Source of the DNA: an uncultured Eubacteriales bacterium
GTDB taxonomy: Bacteria > Bacillota > Clostridia > Christensenellales > CAG-138
Assembly (NCBI GenBank): GCA_900545265.1
Contig: UQYI01000003.1
Location: forward strand, 8,932 to 72,931
Length of the DNA stretch: 64,000 nucleotides
Direction: 5' to 3'
Each line of letters opens with the position of its first letter. The first letter of the stretch is position 1. The notes below the pieces were generated by a model that made no database searches, was not told the origin of the DNA, and saw only the letters and a list, made by a program, of their open reading frames with translations. The position numbers and the translations under genes are program-made. This document shows, piece after piece, positions 4,739-54,338 of the stretch.

Positions 4739-5005
4739 GCGTGCACCCCGCTTCGTCGCCTGGTTCCCGGCTGGACCCCCGGACAGGTGGCTCCCCGCAG
4801 GAAGACTTGCGGCACACAAACCTATCCGCTTAGTGCTGCTTCCTTCCGGATCTGACACGGTTCACAGCGGTCTGTTGCACAAGACCCGCAGCTCAACACT
4901 CCTTATCCGGGCCATAACCCAAAACCATGCGCCTCAGACGGGGGATCCGGTCCTGCTGTAGCGGATTGCAGGTTCAGGGCACCGCTGATTCCCCACTTGG
5001 CACGC
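4739..5005 (-). ncRNA. ffs: Signal recognition particle RNA, long (Bacillus/Clostridium) type with Alu domain
   Basis: The minus strand contains the universal helix-8 motif GUCAGAUCCGGAAGGAAGCAGCACUAAG and an Alu-like 5' domain (GGUGCCCUGAACCUGCAAUCCGCUACAGCAGG). The 5' GCGUGCC pairs with the 3' GGUGCACGC. Length is about 267 nt, with its own promoter and a U-run. Confidence 0.85.
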
Positions 5006-13288: not shown

Positions 13289-13436
13289 CCGAAGCCAAAG
13301 GGCAAGAAAAATCCCCGCGAATCCCGCTTCTTGCGCATAAGCGGATCCCCTTGCACTGGCAAAACAGGCATTGACGCCGATTCAGGCTGCGGATACCGGG
13401 AAGTTCGAAGGAACGTTAATTCACGGGAAGCGGGGG

Positions 13437-13522
13437 TGGGGCGCACTGCGTGCCTGACGGCACGCCTGCGGGGCATTTGCCCCGCAGAGTTCCGGCGGCA
13501 AAGCCGCCGGAACGTGCGCCCC
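13437..13522 (+). repeat. Intergenic multi-hairpin repeat, copy 1 of 3
   Basis: GGGGCGCAC [GCGTGCC-TGAC-GGCACGC] [CTGCGGGGC-ATTT-GCCCCGCAG] [GTTCCGGCGGC-AAA-GCCGCCGGAAC] GTGCGCCCC. Near-identical copies occur at 46473 and 54186. Confidence 0.9.
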
Positions 13523-13650
13523 GCCCATGTATACGGCTCGGCCCCGTGCCCTAACGTCCCAGCCTCCGCCGCAGGAAAATCTCTTTCCTCCGAAAGAGCA
13601 GCTGCATGTTCCTTCTTGTACGTTTTTCCGCAGACCCGTGTTTTTCCCGT

Positions 13651-17000: not shown

Positions 17001-17164
17001 GTTTTTCCCTCCGTTTGCTTTTGATTTAAGTATATCCGTCCGGCTGCCAAAGGCAAGCGTTATCTTCTTTCTGCAAAACATCTGTTTTTGCAGAAAGAAA
17101 GGAAACCGATCAAAAGGGCTGTTCAAAAGCCTTTCCGCATGCTATAGTAAGCATGTAAAGAAAA

Positions 17165-17236
17165 GCTCTCATATAGTTTCGCTGAAAACGGTGCGAAAGT
17201 TTCTACAGAGCCGCCGAAAGGCTCTGCTATGAGTGC
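17165..17236 (+). promoter_or_regulatory. Purine riboswitch aptamer, guanine/xanthine class (C discriminator)
   Basis: P1 is CUCAUA (17168-73) paired with UAUGAG (17228-33). J2/3 is GUUUCUAC. P3 is AGAGCC-GCCGAAA-GGCUCU, and J3/1 is GC with C at 17227. The pattern matches the xpt guanine aptamer and lies upstream of a guanine deaminase. Confidence 0.8.
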
Positions 17237-17276
17237 CCGGTATGGATACAGAGTTTCATACGGGCGCTTTTTCTTT
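17235..17276 (+). terminator. Intrinsic terminator forming the riboswitch expression platform
   Basis: GCCCGGUAUG...CAUACGGGC stem (one bulged G) followed by GCUUUUUCUUU, located 28 nt before the guaD start. Confidence 0.65.
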
Positions 17277-17303
17277 CGTAAATGCGTAAAAGGAGGCTGT
17301 ATC

Positions 17304-18560
17304 ATGATCCTGCTCAAAGGCAACATTCTGCACACCCCTGCACCGGGACAGCTGGAAGCCCTCCCCCATGGCGGTCTGCTTCTGGAGGAAGACGGCACCA
17401 TCCGCGCAGTGCTCTCCCATATCCCGGAAGGGTTGGAGGCCCGGGTCATTGACTATGGGGACAGGCTGCTGCTTCAGTCCTTCTGCGATATGCATCTGCA
17501 CGCCCCCCAGTACCCCATGCTGGGCATGGGAACGGATCTGCCCCTGCTTCAATGGCTCCACCGCTATGCTTACCCTACGGAGGCACGTTTTGCGGATACA
17601 GACTACGCCCGGCGGGTCTACCGGCAGCTGGCACAGGTGCTCATTGCCAGCGGCACCACCCGGGTATGCATGTTCTCTTCCCTCCATACCGACGCCACGC
17701 TGATCCTTATGGAAGAGTTGGAAAAGGCCGGAGTCACGGGCTTTGTGGGCAAAGTGAACATGGACAGAAATGGAGATCCCGCCCTGCAGGAGACCACGGA
17801 AGGCTCCAAGCGGGAGACCCTTCGCTGGCTGGAAGCCTGTACCGGATTCCGCTATGTACGGCCCATCCTGACCCCCCGGTTCACCCCTTCCTGCACCGAC
17901 GGGCTCATGGCCTTTTTAGGAGAGCTGGCGCAGGAGCGGGGATTGTATGTGCAATCCCATCTTTCCGAAAATAAAAACGAGGTGGAATGGGTGCGCACTC
18001 TCCACCCGGACTGCTCCCAGTACTGGCAGACCTACGCCAAATTCGGCCTGTGGAAAGAGCATACCCTTATGGCTCACTGCGTCCAGTGCGGAGAAGAAGA
18101 GATCCGTTCCATGGCAGAAAACGGGGTGATAGCCGTGCACTGCCCCGATTCCAACGTGAATATCTGCAGCGGCACAGCCCCCGTTCGCCATCTGCTGGAA
18201 AGCGGTGTATGGGTGACTCTGGGCAGCGATATTGCCGGCGGGGCGCAGCTGCCCATGAACCAGGTCATTACCGCCAGCATACGGGCCAGCAAGGTACGTC
18301 ACATGACGGATCCCGCCGCCCCGCCCTTTCTTACGGCAGCAGAGGGCTACTATCTGGGTGCCGCCTCCGGACACCGTTACTTCGGTGCCGGGCCGGGCTT
18401 TGCCCCGGGGGATAAGCTGCACGCTCTGGTGTTGGATGATTCCGCTTTCCCTGAGCCGGCTTCTCCGCTGTCCCTGCCGGAGCGGCTGGAGCGGGCGCTG
18501 TATCTCATGACTCCCGATTCCATCACCGCACGCTGGTCCGAAGGACGGCTGCTGCCGTAA
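17304..18560 (+). CDS. guaD: Guanine deaminase (amidohydrolase superfamily)
   Basis: Start at MILLKGNILHTP... (AAAGGAGG SD); the ORF track begins at 17229. The metal-binding motif DMHLHAPQYPMLGMG is present, and length and layout fit guanine deaminase. Riboswitch context supports the call. Confidence 0.75.
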   Translation: MILLKGNILHTPAPGQLEALPHGGLLLEEDGTIRAVLSHIPEGLEARVIDYGDRLLLQSFCDMHLHAPQYPMLGMGTDLPLLQWLHRYAYPTEARFADTDYARRVYRQLAQVLIASGTTRVCMFSSLHTDATLILMEELEKAGVTGFVGKVNMDRNGDPALQETTEGSKRETLRWLEACTGFRYVRPILTPRFTPSCTDGLMAFLGELAQERGLYVQSHLSENKNEVEWVRTLHPDCSQYWQTYAKFGLWKEHTLMAHCVQCGEEEIRSMAENGVIAVHCPDSNVNICSGTAPVRHLLESGVWVTLGSDIAGGAQLPMNQVITASIRASKVRHMTDPAAPPFLTAAEGYYLGAASGHRYFGAGPGFAPGDKLHALVLDDSAFPEPASPLSLPERLERALYLMTPDSITARWSEGRLLP

Positions 18561-23733: not shown

Positions 23734-25042
23734 TTATATTTTCACCTTGAATACGGTCTGTTCCGTAATATCCGTGGCCAGTGCTTCCAAAGCCACGCCC
23801 ACCCGGTGATACCGCAGCTTCCACCGCTCTGCCGCCGGAGCATTTGGATCTCCCAGCGGATAGGGAATGGAAATGGTCGGCACGATCCGGTTGGCCCCTA
23901 CGGTCAGGGACACGGGGATCAGGTTGCACATATGCACAATGGGGAACCCTGCCTTTTCAAACTCTTTTACCATCGTTGCACCGCAACGCGTACAGGTGCC
24001 TCATGTGGAGCCCATAATAATGGCGGTTACCCCGTCTTCCTGCAAAAAGGGAATCATCTCGCCGGGCCTCAGCCTCAGTAGTGCCTGTGCCTACGGTGGA
24101 ATAGAACCAGTTATGGAGCCGGCCGATCTTTCCTTCCCGTTCATAGGCGCGCATGGCATCCAGCGGCACGATCACGTTGGGGTCGGCGTTGGCGGCAGCC
24201 GGGTCAAAGCCGGCGTGGATGGTTTTGAACTGACCGGCGCTGAGACGCTCCATACCGGAAACGTCATAGCGTCCCCAGCGGGTAGCAGAGGCGGACTGGA
24301 TGCGATCCGGATTATCCACAGGAACGATGCCGCCGGTAGTCACCAGTGCCACCACCGCCTTGGAAAGATCCCGGATGGCCGGTGCAATGGGCACCATCTC
24401 CTTTTCGGGAATGATGAGCTCCGTCTGATAGGGCAGCTTGTTCATCTTTTGGATGAGCATCTGCACCCTGCGGTAAGCGGCGGTATTCTCCCTGATATTC
24501 TCCAGAAATTTTTCGTGCCGGCAGCCCCGGGGGAAGTATCCCTCTGCCAAGGCGCCCTCATTGGGCAGCCCCTGCAGGAGCTTATTGGCAAAGGCGGCCA
24601 TTGCTTTTACATCCTGACGCATCTTTACGGCTCCGTTGCCGCCCTTAAAAATGATCACATCCCGCTTGAACATTTCCACACCGGGGTTTTCTTCGTTCAT
24701 GGAAGTGATCACGGGGATATGGAGCCGTTCCTTCACCGCTTTGCATATGTTGCCGCAGGCCACGCCGTAACGCCCTGCCTGAAAGGCGGGTCCGGCAATA
24801 AACAGATCGCAGGGTTTATCCTGCAGCATATCCATGATCCGGGAAAGAGCCTCTTCCGTATGAGAGCCCATAAAGTTGTCGCCGCAAACCACGGTGTGCG
24901 TGATCTCGGCTCCCTTGAGCGCCGCCTTGAAAGCCATGCCGGGGCCCACCACGCCCTCCATGATATAGGGCTCCTGGTCTGCCTTATCCTCTCCGCCCAC
25001 ACCGGCGAAGAACTGATTGAGATAACAGATAACCTTCTTCAT
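23734..25042 (-). pseudogene. Glycine/sarcosine/betaine reductase component B selenoprotein subunit (GrdB/GrdF/GrdH family), with Sec-UGA and an apparent frameshift
   Basis: N-terminal part is MKKVICYLNQFFAGVGGEDKADQEPYIMEG... (ORF 23957-25042). The Sec motif IIMGST-UGA-GTCTRCGATMVKEFEKAGFP lies in another frame, with UGA at 24003-24001, and that frame continues to the stop at 23734. Confidence 0.8.
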
Positions 25043-46311: not shown

Positions 46312-46472
46312 TCCTTCCTTTAAGAAACATTTGTTACGCTACGTTTGTTTCTGTATTGTATGTCACAAAACTTATTCTGTCAACAGAAACTTTCACACCG
46401 AACCATGTGCCTTTGCCAGCTAAAAAGAGGCCGGCGCCCGCCGCTGCCCAGGTTGCATCAAATACGATATTA

Positions 46473-46555
46473 GGGGGCGCACCGCGTGCCGAAGGCACGC
46501 CTGCGGGGCATTTGCCCCGCAGAGTTCCGGCGGTACCGCCGGAACGTGCGCCCCC
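46473..46555 (+). repeat. Intergenic multi-hairpin repeat, copy 2 of 3
   Basis: GGGGGCGCAC [GCGTGCC-GAA-GGCACGC] [CTGCGGGGC-ATTT-GCCCCGCAG] [GTTCCGGCGG-TA-CCGCCGGAAC] GTGCGCCCCC. Confidence 0.9.
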
Positions 46556-46671
46556 GGAAAGCGAAGCACTTTCCTCCCCCGTAAGACCCGGGAGCCGCAT
46601 ATAACACAAATGCTGCTTTTACCGGAAAAACACCCGTACGGCTGCATGTTCAAACGATATTCACCTGACAG

Positions 46672-46702
46672 CATATAAAAAAGAAGCCCGCTTTCGGGCT
46701 TC
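46672..46702 (-). terminator. Intrinsic terminator after the small membrane protein gene
   Basis: Minus strand: GAAGCCCG-AAAG-CGGGCUUC followed by UUUUUUAUAU. Confidence 0.8.
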
Positions 46703-52690: not shown

Positions 52691-53809
52691 TCAGATTAGA
52701 TTCTTTCCGGTTTCGGCAGAGAACAGGTGCACCAGTTCCCCGTTGACGCCCAGCGTAAGGGCTGTGCCATAGGGATAGCCTCCCCGATGCTCAGCCTGAA
52801 GTCGGGTGATGGGGATGCGGATAACCGTGTCCCGGCCATGGCACTGGGCATGCACATACAGTTCGCTGCCCATCATTTCGCACACATCCACCTTGGCAGG
52901 GAGCGTGTTCTCTCCGGCTTCTGCAGCCAGATCCGTATGCTCGGGACGGATACCCAGCACGATGGCCTGGGACTCTACGTTCTGCGCCTTCAGGGCATTC
53001 TGCTTGCTTTCGGGCAGACGGATGATATCCCCTTCCAGATCCACGTAATAGCCGGTTTCATCCTTCTTGAGCTGCGCATCGAAGAAATTCATTTGCGGCG
53101 TACCGATAAAGCCGGCGACAAACTGGTTGGCGGGATGATCGAACACCTCGCTGGGGGTGCCGATCTGCTGGATGTAGCCATCTTTCATAATAACAATACG
53201 ATCCCCCAGCGTCATGGCTTCGGTCTGATCATGAGTAACGTATACAAAAGTGGTGTTGACCCGCTGACGCAGCTTGATAATCTCGGCACGCATCTGATTG
53301 CGGAGCTTGGCATCCAGGTTGGAAAGAGGCTCGTCCATCAAAAAGACCTGCGGATCCCGGACGATGGCCCGGCCGATGGCTACACGCTGGCGCTGGCCGC
53401 CGGAAAGGGCTTTGGGCTTTCTGTCCAGATACTGGGTGATGTCCAGAATCTCTGCGGCGGCCCGAACCTTTTTGTCGATCTCGGCCTTGGGCGTCTTGCG
53501 CAACTTCAGGGCAAAAGCCATGTTCTCATACACGGTCATGTGGGGATAGAGGGCATAGTTCTGGAATACCATGGCGATATCCCGATCTTTGGGCGCTACA
53601 TCGTTGACCAGCTTGTCGCCGATGTACAGTTCCCCTTCTGAGATCTCTTCCAGGCCTGCGATCATACGCAGAGTAGTGGATTTGCCGCAGCCGGAAGGGC
53701 CAACCAGCACGATAAATTCCTTGTCGGCGATCTCCAGATTAAAATCATGAACCGCCACCACATTCTTGTCGTAGATCTTCTTGATGTTTTTCAGGGACAA
53801 AGTTGCCAT
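52691..53809 (-). CDS. msmK: Sugar ABC importer ATP-binding protein (MsmK/MalK/UgpC type), orphan
   Basis: Start at MATLSLKNIKKIYD...; the ORF track extends to 53896. It has Walker A GPSGCGKST, signature LSGGQRQR, Walker B VFLMDEPLSNLD, and a C-terminal regulatory/TOBE-like domain. No permease or binding-protein gene is adjacent. Confidence 0.9.
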   Translation of the reverse strand: MATLSLKNIKKIYDKNVVAVHDFNLEIADKEFIVLVGPSGCGKSTTLRMIAGLEEISEGELYIGDKLVNDVAPKDRDIAMVFQNYALYPHMTVYENMAFALKLRKTPKAEIDKKVRAAAEILDITQYLDRKPKALSGGQRQRVAIGRAIVRDPQVFLMDEPLSNLDAKLRNQMRAEIIKLRQRVNTTFVYVTHDQTEAMTLGDRIVIMKDGYIQQIGTPSEVFDHPANQFVAGFIGTPQMNFFDAQLKKDETGYYVDLEGDIIRLPESKQNALKAQNVESQAIVLGIRPEHTDLAAEAGENTLPAKVDVCEMMGSELYVHAQCHGRDTVIRIPITRLQAEHRGGYPYGTALTLGVNGELVHLFSAETGKNLI

Positions 53810-54029
53810 TGGGTCTTGTTCATGGCAAAAGAGCCTCCGCTGATTTGCCTTGCCGCCGGGAAGCTGCCTCCCGAAAGCTTTACGACAGGTCTCCACGCTG
53901 CCGCACCGCTGAACAAAGCGGGTTCTCTCCTTTCACGATTCCCCTCAGGGCATGAAGTGGAGTGCCGAAAGGGGGCTGAAATAGATAAGTACAAAAAGTC
54001 TGCAAAAGCAATCCTTTCTGCCTGTTTAC

Positions 54030-54058: not shown

Positions 54059-54185
54059 GACCGGCAGAAAAACGAAGGATATTATGCAAAAAGCGCTTTT
54101 TGTGAGAAGATGCATCCTCTGCCTTTTCCGACCCGGTATGGATCGCTGGCAGCCGCTATTGTAGCCGTTCGGTAAGCGAAGGGGC

Positions 54186-54263
54186 GGGCGCACTGCGTGC
54201 CGCAAGGCACGCCTGCGGGGCATTCGCCCCGCAGCGTTCCGGCTGTGCCGGAACCGTGCGCCC
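54186..54263 (+). repeat. Intergenic multi-hairpin repeat, copy 3 of 3
   Basis: GGGCGCAC [GCGTGCC-GCAA-GGCACGC] [CTGCGGGGC-ATTC-GCCCCGCAG] [GTTCCGGC-TGT-GCCGGAAC] CGTGCGCCC. Confidence 0.9.
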
Positions 54264-54338
54264 GGGGAGCGTATACCCTCAAATCCCTTTTGTCCGAGGC
54301 AGCGAAGGGCATACAGCCGCATTCAGTAAACTGCTTCT

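What the first reader, a model, noticed from the sequence alone, without database searches (positions are those of the whole stretch)
13437..13522. Structured ~80-bp intergenic repeat (outer stem plus three perfect hairpins), copy 1; three same-orientation copies in the window
The sequence is GGGGCGCAC [GCGTGCC-TGAC-GGCACGC] C [CTGCGGGGC-ATTT-GCCCCGCAG] A [GTTCCGGCGGC-AAA-GCCGCCGGAAC] GTGCGCCCC. It recurs at 46473-46555 and 54186-54263. Across copies the stems are invariant. The loops differ (TGAC/GAA/GCAA; ATTT/ATTC). The third hairpin changes length symmetrically (11, 10 and 8 bp). This is the signature of selection on structure rather than on a protein or a linear motif. An outer stem closing a three-hairpin junction gives a cloverleaf-like four-way junction, as RNA from either strand or as a DNA cruciform. 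All three copies lie in gaps between co-directional minus-strand genes, downstream of one gene's stop and upstream of the next promoter, and all have the same orientation. None has a U-run, so they are not standard terminators. Possible roles include a REP/BIME-like element (mRNA 3'-end stabiliser, insulator, or target of a REP-associated transposase), a small structured RNA, or a recombination site. I do not recognise it as a named family.
Basis: seen in the sequence. Interest (0 to 1): 0.6.

Follow-up and report, generated by a model that had tools for sequence, protein, structure and literature searches.

The report
Dispersed four-way-junction DNA repeat family
The three 80-85-base sequences belong to a previously undescribed family of GC-rich repeats, scattered between genes of uncultured human-gut Clostridia, that fold into a perfect four-armed junction; they behave like small parasitic mobile DNA rather than a gene or a regulatory switch.

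Summary
Three same-strand copies (13438-13522, 46473-46555, 54186-54263) each fold, on either strand, as RNA or DNA, into an outer stem plus three hairpins (z -5 to -10). No Rfam family, tRNA, phage or plasmid matches them.

Human-gut metagenome contigs yielded 103 distinct copies at about 34 unrelated intergenic sites.
- 99.3% of stem positions pair, and 13 of 33 pairs show compensatory changes.
- Junction-proximal stems are 97-99% identical between sites; hairpin tips are about 35% identical.

The repeat unit is larger than reported. It carries flank motifs: GGGAAGCG or CGTATACG on the 5' side, and CGTATAC on the 3' side. At least three further sequence families share the architecture but use different arm sequences. 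One of them sits in frame at the 3' end of a dacA homologue.

The core is a precise 87-nt presence/absence difference between 99%-identical strains. Neighbouring genes are diverse housekeeping genes. Half of the sites lie beyond a canonical terminator.

The best reading is a non-autonomous REP/MITE-like mobile repeat recognised as a folded single strand. I found no transposase, so the mobilising enzyme is unknown. I rate it a new variant of a known kind, of moderate interest.

The parts
13438..13522 (.). Copy 1 core: outer stem 13438-13446/13514-13522; hairpin 1 13448-13465; hairpin 2 13466-13487; hairpin 3 13489-13513. The functional strand is undetermined.
   Evidence: Sequence; RNA fold z -10.3/-9.5; DNA fold z -9.9; covariance-model score 93.6 bits.
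13425..13432 (+). Copy 1 5' flank motif GGGAAGCG (type A), 5 nt before the outer stem.
   Evidence: The motif recurs at 15 of 32 independent sites.
13529..13534 (.). Copy 1 3' flank motif GTATAC (type B), 6 nt after the outer stem.
   Evidence: A GTATAC-type motif is present 3' of the core at 24 of 32 sites.
13581..13598 (-). Weak terminator-like hairpin (CTCTTTCGGAGGAAAGAG followed by ATTTTCC) between the dacA-like stop codon (13651) and copy 1.
46473..46555 (.). Copy 2 core: outer stem 46473-46482/46546-46555; hairpin 1 46484-46500; hairpin 2 46501-46522; hairpin 3 46524-46545.
   Evidence: 108.4 bits. It is conserved in place in other strains, L107, L108 and L065.
46462..46467 (+). Copy 2 5' flank ATACGA, a degenerate type B motif.
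46556..46574 (+). Copy 2 3' flank GGAAAGCGAAGCACTTTCC, a small hairpin carrying GCGAAG.
46677..46702 (-). Canonical intrinsic terminator (GAAGCCCGAAAGCGGGCTTC followed by TTTTTT) of the upstream 71-aa ORF. It lies about 120 nt before copy 2 in the direction of transcription.
   Evidence: Alignment with strains L107, L108, L065 and L008; terminator scan.
54186..54263 (.). Copy 3 core: outer stem 54186-54193/54256-54263; hairpin 1 54195-54212; hairpin 2 54213-54234; hairpin 3 54236-54254.
   Evidence: 79.6 bits. Orthologues are L002 and L012.
54171..54179 (+). Copy 3 5' flank GGTAAGCGA (type A variant).
54271..54276 (.). Copy 3 3' flank GTATAC (type B).

Best explanation
The three sequences are members of a dispersed, non-autonomous mobile or duplicative DNA repeat family in a few uncultured human-gut Clostridia. 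The nearest known kinds are REP/REPIN and MITE elements.

The unit has three parts:
- An 80-95-nt core whose single strand folds into a perfect four-way junction (outer stem GGGG(G)CGCAC/GTGCGCCCC(C) plus three hairpins).
- A 5' flank motif, GGGAAGCG or CGTATACG.
- A 3' flank motif, CGTATAC.

Proposed mechanism, which is inferred and not shown. A trans-acting, structure- and sequence-specific enzyme recognises the folded single strand: the junction-proximal stem sequences, the G/C-run outer stem and the flank motifs. By analogy the most plausible enzyme is an HUH/Y1-type transposase. It copies or moves the element into transcriptionally quiet DNA just beyond gene 3' ends and terminators.

Hairpin tips are irrelevant to recognition and drift freely. 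The arms stay perfectly paired either through selection on the fold or through intra-strand correction in the folded intermediate. Any effects on the host, such as RNA 3'-end protection or recombination substrates, would be by-products.

Shown here: the fold, family size, dispersal, presence/absence polymorphism, flank motifs, the context bias, and sister families with the same architecture.

Inferred: mobility by transposition, the identity of the enzyme, and the single-strand intermediate.
For: 1. Dispersal. 103 distinct copies fall at about 34 sites with unrelated far flanks, which are 25% identical, i.e. random. Several large contigs each hold 3 separate exact-pattern stretches. One genome carries 5 copies in 10.7 kb.
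2. Neighbours. The flanking genes are diverse housekeeping genes, with no family enriched: GidA, ParB, SelA, Hsp90, tRNA synthetases and others.
3. Gain or loss. An 87-nt core is precisely present or absent between strains that are 99% identical (L027 against L086), bounded by a 5-nt direct repeat CGGGG. A related species (DacA 64% identical) has only a 50-nt dacA-M50 gap.
4. Decay products. There are partial internal deletions (L008; L025).
5. Recent copying. The nearest paralogue differs by 0-3 nt at about half of the sites.
6. Structure is kept. 99.3% of 3362 stem cells pair; 13 of 33 pairs show double changes; 0 of 500 shuffles reach this.
7. Sister families. Families with the same architecture and the same A/B-type flanks have different arm sequences.
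8. Intragenic copy. In L111, one element with this architecture but no sequence similarity sits in frame at the 3' end of dacA. It adds 39 residues. That is typical of selfish palindromic elements, not of a regulatory RNA.
9. Position. 14 of 26 sites lie beyond a canonical terminator.
10. Not a known RNA. There is no Rfam family and no tRNA.
Against: - No transposase or other candidate partner gene was seen among genes next to copies, or by a crude HUH-motif scan of about 900 kb.
- No unambiguous target-site duplication exists. The one polymorphic site is equally explained by slippage deletion between the CGGGG repeats.
- Copies at orthologous sites are stable across strains, so activity, if any, is low.
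- Junction-proximal stems are far more conserved than tips across old paralogues. This could instead mean host-level purifying selection.
- Orientation is not tightly linked to replication direction (19:14), unlike classic IS200/IS605 behaviour.
- No copies were found in phage, plasmid or viral collections, so no vehicle for horizontal spread is seen.
Confidence: 0.55

Rival explanations
1. Host-useful RNA module in 3' untranslated regions. The element is read through from the upstream gene, and the very stable junction blocks 3'-to-5' exonucleases or insulates neighbouring transcription units, as proposed for E. coli REP.
For: - The element lies 20-320 nt, mostly under 200 nt, downstream of a gene's stop codon in 26 of 32 sites. 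In co-directional contexts the orientation bias is 14:3.
- The fold is extremely stable.
- Stems are conserved while tips drift.
- 12 of 26 sites have no recognisable terminator before the element.
Against: - 14 of 26 sites, including window copy 2, have a canonical terminator between gene and element.
- Wobble evidence points, weakly, to the opposite strand. There are 17 G.T cells on the strand antisense to the upstream gene against 7 A.C cells.
- No gene class is enriched.
- One family member lies inside a coding region.
- Stem sequence, not only pairing, is conserved.
Confidence: 0.17
2. Domesticated DNA structural site. The folded or extruded junction, together with the GTATAC-type flank sites, is bound by a host protein at gene ends. 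Candidates are a junction-binding protein, a recombinase, a gyrase or a nucleoid protein. The site would then be kept by purifying selection.
For: - Junction-proximal stems are 97-99% identical across 34 sites while tips are about 35% identical.
- Palindromic GTATAC motifs sit at symmetric distances on both sides.
- Copies are stable in place across strains.
- The position is beyond terminators.
- Contigs cross over inside the palindromic hairpin 2 (L083).
Against: - Copy density is very uneven between genomes. Several large contigs hold 3 separate exact-pattern stretches each, against 5 model hits in 10.7 kb in another genome.
- The taxonomic range is narrow: 1 hit in 185,579 species representatives.
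- The core is present or absent between near-identical strains with no sign of compensation.
- Short GC-rich arms extrude poorly from duplex DNA (general knowledge).
- The stem-identity figure is partly built in by the search pattern.
Confidence: 0.13
3. An independently transcribed small structured RNA gene family, or a cis-regulatory leader.
For: - The structure is strong and has compensatory changes.
- Terminator-like hairpins with T-rich tails follow the unit on the model strand at some sites.
- There is a weak excess of G.U-compatible changes on that strand.
Against: - No promoter is evident, and at convergent sites there is no room for one after the neighbouring terminator.
- There are no conserved unpaired nucleotides in loops or junctions.
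- Loops are hypervariable.
- No Rfam family matches.
- There is no consistent downstream gene.
- The flanks do not pair with each other better than mismatched controls.
Confidence: 0.07

Closest known systems
REP / REPIN / BIME elements with RAYT (Y1, HUH) transposases (Proteobacteria and others)
   Same: - Short, GC-rich, extragenic palindromic repeats, tens to hundreds per genome.
- Mostly just after gene 3' ends.
- Conserved stem with variable loop.
- A population of near-identical and older copies.
- Vertical persistence at fixed sites.
- Recognition presumed on folded single-stranded DNA.
   Different: - A REP is one 20-40-bp imperfect hairpin, and a REPIN is two inverted REPs forming one long hairpin. 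Here a single unit forms four helices around a junction.
- There is no GTAG or CGTC tag at the foot of the structure.
- There are no inverted dimers.
- No RAYT gene was found near copies.
- The hosts are Clostridia. The REP survey I read lists none from Firmicutes (PMC3733652).
Bacterial MITEs (Correia, ERIC, RUP, BOX, Nezha)
   Same: - Non-autonomous, 80-200 bp, with terminal inverted repeats (here the 9-11-bp outer stem, possibly extending to the GTATAC motifs).
- Intergenic, foldable, and occasionally inserted in frame into genes.
- Can promote rearrangements.
   Different: - No clear target-site duplication.
- No related full-length insertion sequence is known.
- The interior is three autonomous perfect palindromes rather than the remnants of two IS ends.
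- Several sequence families share the architecture but not the arm sequences.
IS200/IS605-derived palindrome-associated elements and other HUH-enzyme substrates (for example parvovirus T-shaped terminal repeats)
   Same: - Function depends on a branched fold of a single DNA strand.
- Insertion and excision occur without target duplication.
- The AAV terminal repeat is an outer stem enclosing two small palindromes, the closest architectural analogue (from my own knowledge).
   Different: - IS200/IS605 ends are not inverted repeats of one another, and their orientation follows replication strictly. Here the bias is weak.
- No HUH gene was found.
- There are three internal palindromes rather than two.
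Mitochondrial GC clusters, double-hairpin elements and repetitive hairpin-forming elements (yeast, algae, sponges)
   Same: GC-rich mobile palindromic modules, richer in G+C than the DNA around them. They occur in several sequence families with a common fold, and sometimes inside genes.
   Different: They are organellar and of one or two hairpins, with no four-way junction. Their hosts and sequences are unrelated, so this is an analogy only (PMC2800124 appeared in the search list; I did not read it).

Membership tests
REP/REPIN (RAYT-associated) | Single imperfect palindrome of 20-40 bp, or an inverted pair of such palindromes forming one long hairpin | tested here: not met
   The core is 78-96 nt and forms four helices, an outer stem plus three hairpins. 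Copies occur singly, not as inverted dimers.
REP/REPIN (RAYT-associated) | Conserved unpaired GTAG or CGTC tag at one foot of the hairpin | tested here: not met
   The feet are flanked by ..GGGGC and GGGCTG... A CGTC occurs only about 40 nt away at some sites.
REP/REPIN (RAYT-associated) | Cognate RAYT (Y1 transposase) gene, typically flanked by the repeats | tested here: inconclusive
   No such gene appears among 56 genes next to copies, among 10 genes in the densest loci, or in a crude HUH-motif scan of all loci. Whole genomes could not be searched.
REP/REPIN (RAYT-associated) | Many extragenic copies, preferentially after gene 3' ends | tested here: met
   About 34 sites are in hand, all intergenic. 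26 of 32 lie just downstream of a gene end.
MITE | Terminal inverted repeats | tested here: met
   The outer stem GGGG(G)CGCAC/GTGCGCCCC(C) is 9-11 bp. In some copies CGTATACG is repeated in inverted position on both sides.
MITE | Target-site duplication of fixed length | tested here: inconclusive
   The one filled/empty pair has a 5-nt direct repeat CGGGG. The window copies and most others show no consistent duplication.
MITE | Parent insertion sequence with the same ends | not testable with these tools
None was seen in about 900 kb of loci.
Intrinsic (Rho-independent) terminator | GC-rich hairpin followed directly by a U-run | tested here: not met
   No T-run follows the core on either strand. 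Separate canonical terminators lie upstream at 14 of 26 sites.
Any Rfam 15 RNA family, including T-box, riboswitches, group II intron domains and small ribozymes | Covariance-model score at or above the family's gathering threshold | tested here: not met
   There is no hit on the copies at gathering thresholds. Only chance-level hits appear at E up to 10, and the same holds for a natural core-less site.
tRNA or tRNA-like | Cloverleaf with tRNA arm lengths, linkers and conserved loops | tested here: not met
   ARAGORN finds 0 genes in the window. The arms are 7-11 bp with 0-1-nt linkers and variable loops.
IS200/IS605-type palindrome-associated element | Strict orientation with respect to the replication direction | tested here: not met
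   Core orientation against local GC skew is 19:14 over all sites, and 13:5 among sites with |skew| above 0.04.
Protein-coding repeat | Reading frame preserved between copies | tested here: not met
   Length differences between copies are not multiples of three. Hairpin 3 is 25, 22 and 19 nt, and loops are 3 or 4 nt.

The most novel reading that the evidence does not exclude
The window copies are one family of a wider, undescribed superfamily of 'four-way-junction elements'. These would be mobile DNA units defined by architecture rather than sequence: a G-run/C-run outer stem, three perfectly paired arms with 0-2-nt linkers, and GTATAC-type flank sites.

Their arms are exchanged or rewritten between families while staying perfectly paired. 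This implies propagation or correction through a folded single-strand, Holliday-junction-shaped intermediate. It also implies recognition by an unknown structure-specific enzyme.

Such elements can also land in frame in gene 3' ends and add peptide tails.
Probability: 0.25. Interest if true: 0.7.

Novelty: new variant of a known kind. Interest (0 to 1): 0.5.

Why it matters
If the reading is right, prevalent but uncultured gut Clostridia carry their own class of REP/MITE-like repeats. REP surveys have not reported any for this phylum.

The architecture is unusual: a single strand forms a perfect four-way junction, and it recurs in several unrelated sequence families. Three consequences follow.
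- The family is a handle for finding a new structure-specific DNA enzyme.
- It would serve as a natural marker for strain typing.
- It is a likely cause of contig breaks and chimeric joins in metagenome assemblies of these species.
- Such elements can remodel gene 3' ends, as the 39-residue tail on a DacA homologue shows.

If the reading is wrong and the sites are host-selected, they would be a new kind of gene-end signal.

Tried and rejected
1. T-box-like reading of the flanks. GGGG..TGGTACC..CGTCCC motifs occur at a minority of sites. I rejected it because Rfam gives no hit, even on a natural core-less site. The strand has no downstream gene, and the motifs occur at only about 6 sites.
2. 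The whole unit as a long nested hairpin, with the flanks pairing across the core. I rejected it because matched 5'/3' flanks pair no better than mismatched pairs from different sites. The core-less L086 site also has no significant fold (z -0.18).
3. A and B flank motifs 'swapped' by inversion of the core. On re-reading, the second class simply carries GTATAC-type motifs on both sides, the 3' one degenerate.
4. Group II intron domain V resemblance (GAGCCGTATAC in copy 1). The AGC triad is not conserved in other copies, and Rfam gives no hit.
5. Small ORF across the element. ORFs exist on the minus strand, but copy-length differences break the frame.
6. Link to replication strand. The bias is weak.
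7. Search for a partner enzyme. I tried a regex for HUH/Y motifs (0 hits; a crude test), Pfam on 56 flanking genes and Pfam on genes of the densest loci. Only a DUF6291 gene is flanked by inverted cores, which is probably chance.
8. Phage, plasmid or viral carriage. There are no matches.
9. Literature. Six full-text searches and two papers consulted found nothing describing this family.
10. A relaxed structural scanner had a logic flaw and found fewer hits than the strict one. I do not use its output.

Full report
**Observation.**
The exact cores are 13438-13522, 46473-46555 and 54186-54263.

Each folds, as RNA or as single-stranded DNA and on either strand, into an outer stem closing three adjacent hairpins with linkers of 0-1 nt.
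- RNA folds have MFE -67 to -89 kcal/mol and z -5.4 to -10.3, with no shuffle folding as well.
- DNA folds have z about -9.9.

The family is the only substantial repeat in the window. Loops and hairpin-3 lengths are as stated.

All three copies lie between Pfam-supported minus-strand genes:
- copy 1, between an S11 D-Ala-D-Ala carboxypeptidase gene and an M50 peptidase gene;
- copy 2, between a PTH2/71-aa ORF pair and a TetR gene;
- copy 3, between an MFS gene and a MalK-type ATPase gene.

**Not a known RNA.**
- Rfam 15 finds SRP RNA, malK-I, SECIS_4 and a purine riboswitch elsewhere in the window, but nothing on the copies.
- Permissive searches give only chance hits. Twelve related loci give nothing at gathering thresholds.
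- ARAGORN finds no tRNA.

**The family elsewhere.**
- An exact-pattern scan of one genome per species (185,579 species) found one further contig, from an uncultured 'Lachnospiraceae' MAG. That 3.7-kb contig carries two copies.
- A pattern on hairpin 2 plus the start of hairpin 3 found 105 stretches in human-gut metagenome contigs.
- A covariance model built from five copies then found 107 forward matches of 50 bits or more. These include divergent copies that the pattern had missed.
- After removing duplicates there are 103-111 distinct cores at about 34 genomic sites, as judged by their flanks.
- The host of the window is an uncultured 'Clostridiales/Eubacteriales' MAG species that is common in human guts.
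- Copy density varies. Several large contigs each hold 3 separate exact-pattern stretches. One genome has 5 model hits in 10.7 kb, in nearly every intergenic gap.
- Viral contigs, GenBank phages and plasmids hold none.

**Anatomy and variation.**
On 103 distinct copies, 99.3% of 3362 stem cells form standard pairs. Thirteen of 33 pairs show changes on both sides. No shuffle out of 500 reaches the observed values, and sliding the partners destroys pairing.

Identity between the 34 sites falls off with distance from the junction:
- junction-proximal stem segments, 97-99%;
- hairpin tips, 34-40%;
- the 20 nt on either side, 37-39%;
- far flanks, 25%, i.e. random.

The search pattern itself forces hairpin 2 and the 5' arm of hairpin 3. 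Hairpin 1, the outer stem and the 3' arm of hairpin 3 were not forced, and they are equally conserved.

Tips change length while keeping complementarity. In some variants the complementarity runs to the centre, as in GTTCCGGCCCCGGGGCCGGAAC.

Non-Watson-Crick cells are rare: 17 G.T, 7 A.C and 17 other. That is about 14 against 5 independent events, which is suggestive only.

**The unit is larger than 80 bp.**
Outside the outer stem there are recurrent motifs (32 sites scored).
- On the 5' side, GGGAAGCG at 15 sites or CGTATACG at 11 sites, followed by about 5 nt of G-rich spacer.
- On the 3' side, GGGCTG then CGTATAC or close variants, at 24 sites.

All three window copies carry such motifs (see the parts list). 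These motifs are not enriched elsewhere in the window.

I considered that the flanks pair with each other to make a long nested hairpin. I rejected this because matched flanks pair no better than mismatched ones. A natural core-less site also has no significant fold.

**Context.**
The genes next to copies are diverse housekeeping genes. No family is enriched and no transposase is present.

I used codon-score gene calls, most of which Pfam confirmed. In other words, the element sits 20-320 nt, mostly under 200 nt, beyond a gene's stop codon. Where both neighbours run the same way the bias is 14:3. The link to GC skew is weaker, at 19:14.

In 14 of 26 such sites a canonical terminator lies between the stop codon and the element. 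For window copy 2 the terminator of the upstream small ORF is about 120 nt before the element. The TetR promoter follows it, and the whole arrangement is conserved in other strains.

**Gain, loss and rearrangement.**
- Strains L027 and L086 are 99% identical over 12 kb. They differ by exactly the 87-nt core at one site, bounded by a 5-nt direct repeat CGGGG. This fits either insertion with duplication or slippage deletion across the hairpin.
- Partial deletions inside cores occur (L008; L025).
- A relative with 64% identical DacA has a 50-nt dacA-M50 gap in place of the window's 363 nt.
- The nearest paralogues differ by 0-3 nt at about half of the sites, loops included, so some copies are young.
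- Contig L083 joins the window's copy-3 locus (99.9% identical) to another copy's locus (99.7% identical), with the crossover inside palindromic hairpin 2. L078 and L049 are similar joins. These are either real rearrangements or assembly chimeras.

**Sister families.**
Weak covariance-model hits, and a strict scan for 'outer stem plus three perfect hairpins', exposed further elements. That scan gave 108 hits in 905 kb against 0 in 453 kb of shuffled sequence. The further elements have the same architecture but different arm sequences.
- One family has outer stem GGGGCGCTGC/GCAGCGCCCC, with the arms CTTTGGCGCC and GCGGCGGC and a middle arm that differs between sites by full double changes. Its CTTTGGCGC hairpin marks five sites, one of them the GGGGATGCA element below.
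- One element has outer stem GGGGATGCA/TGCATCCCC and shares the CTTTGGCGC arm in a different position.
- One element, in L111, is GGGGCGGC / 8-bp arm / 18-bp arm / 8-bp arm / GCCGCCCC.

The second family has the same kinds of flank motif (GGAGCGGGAG, CGTATAC). The L111 element lies in frame at the very end of the dacA homologue. The protein aligns with the window's DacA to residue 374 of 375 and then runs on for 39 residues.

So the architecture and the G-run/C-run outer stem are shared across families whose arms are unrelated.

**Interpretation.**
Several features fit a selfish, non-autonomous repeat of the REP/REPIN/MITE kind better than they fit a regulatory RNA:
- generic dispersal beside unrelated genes;
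- presence/absence and decay variants;
- a mix of young and old copies;
- location in transcriptionally quiet DNA beyond terminators;
- sister families with the same architecture;
- one in-frame intragenic member.

Perfect pairing with free tips, sequence-conserved junction-proximal stems and conserved flank sites point to recognition of a folded single strand by a sequence- and structure-specific enzyme. HUH/Y1 enzymes are the known precedent, but I found none, so that step is inference.

It fails the defining tests for REP: it is not a single hairpin, and it has no GTAG/CGTC tag and no dimers. It meets only part of those for a MITE: inverted termini yes, target duplication unclear, no parent IS.

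The rivals remain open because no transcript or protein data exist for these uncultured species. The rivals are:
- a 3'-end RNA protector or insulator;
- a host-kept protein-binding DNA site;
- an independent small RNA.

**Novelty.**
Six full-text literature searches and two REP surveys turned up no description of this family or of four-way-junction repeats in bacteria. The Rfam searches above found no matching family. I rate it a new variant of a known kind (dispersed palindromic repeats), of moderate interest. The interest rises if the architecture-defined superfamily and a dedicated enzyme are confirmed.

Noticed in passing
L111:1256-1349 (contig logan:SRR35641738_40187): A four-helix element (GGGGCGGC, then arms of 8, 18 and 8 bp, then GCCGCCCC; MFE -82 kcal/mol, z -9.6) lies in frame at the 3' end of a dacA homologue. 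It has no sequence similarity to the window family. It extends the protein from about 375 to 413 residues.
   Followed up: partly
L016:9378-9459, L025:4977-5057, L027:8396-8476, L086:12093-12173, L089:1325-1403, L030:2236-2321: These are second and third sequence families with the same architecture (outer stems GGGGCGCTGC and GGGGATGCA). Both families share the arm CTTTGGCGC(C)..(G)GCGCCAAAG, but in different positions. They co-occur in genomes that also carry the window family.
   Followed up: partly
L083:2374-2467: This contig joins the window's copy-3 locus (99.9% identical) to another copy's locus (L073, 99.7% identical) in opposite orientation, crossing over inside palindromic hairpin 2. 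It is either an inversion between repeats or a metagenome assembly chimera. L078 and L049 look like similar joins.
   Followed up: partly
L027:4290-4400 against L025:936-1040: A 33-nt segment carrying a second GGTGGGAAGCGA motif is present in L027, L086 and L007 and absent in L025. This is a tandem duplication or deletion of the flank motif just 5' of a core.
   Followed up: no
L092:9277-10254 and L015:6735-7736: A 326-334-aa gene with an N-terminal DUF6291 domain is bracketed by two cores in inverted orientation in two related genomes. It is probably chance in a very repeat-dense region, but it is the only gene seen flanked this way.
   Followed up: partly
window 23963-24000 (-): There is a SECIS_4 selenocysteine insertion element (62.5 bits) close to the 3' end of the 361-aa minus-strand ORF 23957-25042, and L-seryl-tRNA selenium transferase (SelA) appears among genes next to copies in other loci. 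This suggests a selenoprotein gene in the window.
   Followed up: no
window 53804-53980 (-): A malK-I RNA (116 bits) overlaps the listed GTG start (53896) of the MalK-type ABC ATPase ORF, so the true start codon is probably further downstream. Copy 3 lies about 200 nt upstream of this leader.
   Followed up: no
window 17149-17249 (+) and 4739-5005 (-): A purine riboswitch aptamer lies upstream of the 443-aa ORF 17229-18560. A large (Bacillus-type) SRP RNA is also present, consistent with a Firmicutes/Clostridia host.
   Followed up: no
window, whole: GTATAC occurs 31 times in 64 kb, against about 12 expected from base composition (my own estimate from the counts). Only the occurrences at 13529 and 54271 belong to the repeat flanks.
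   Followed up: no
L011:5290-5345 (-): A core-less site, GGAAGCGGGGAGC-GGGGGCGC-TGGCTTTCGTATACGAACC, is closed by GGAAAGG/CCTTTTCC. It has both flank motifs and only the first 8 nt of an outer arm. It could be an unfilled target or a deletion remnant.
   Followed up: partly
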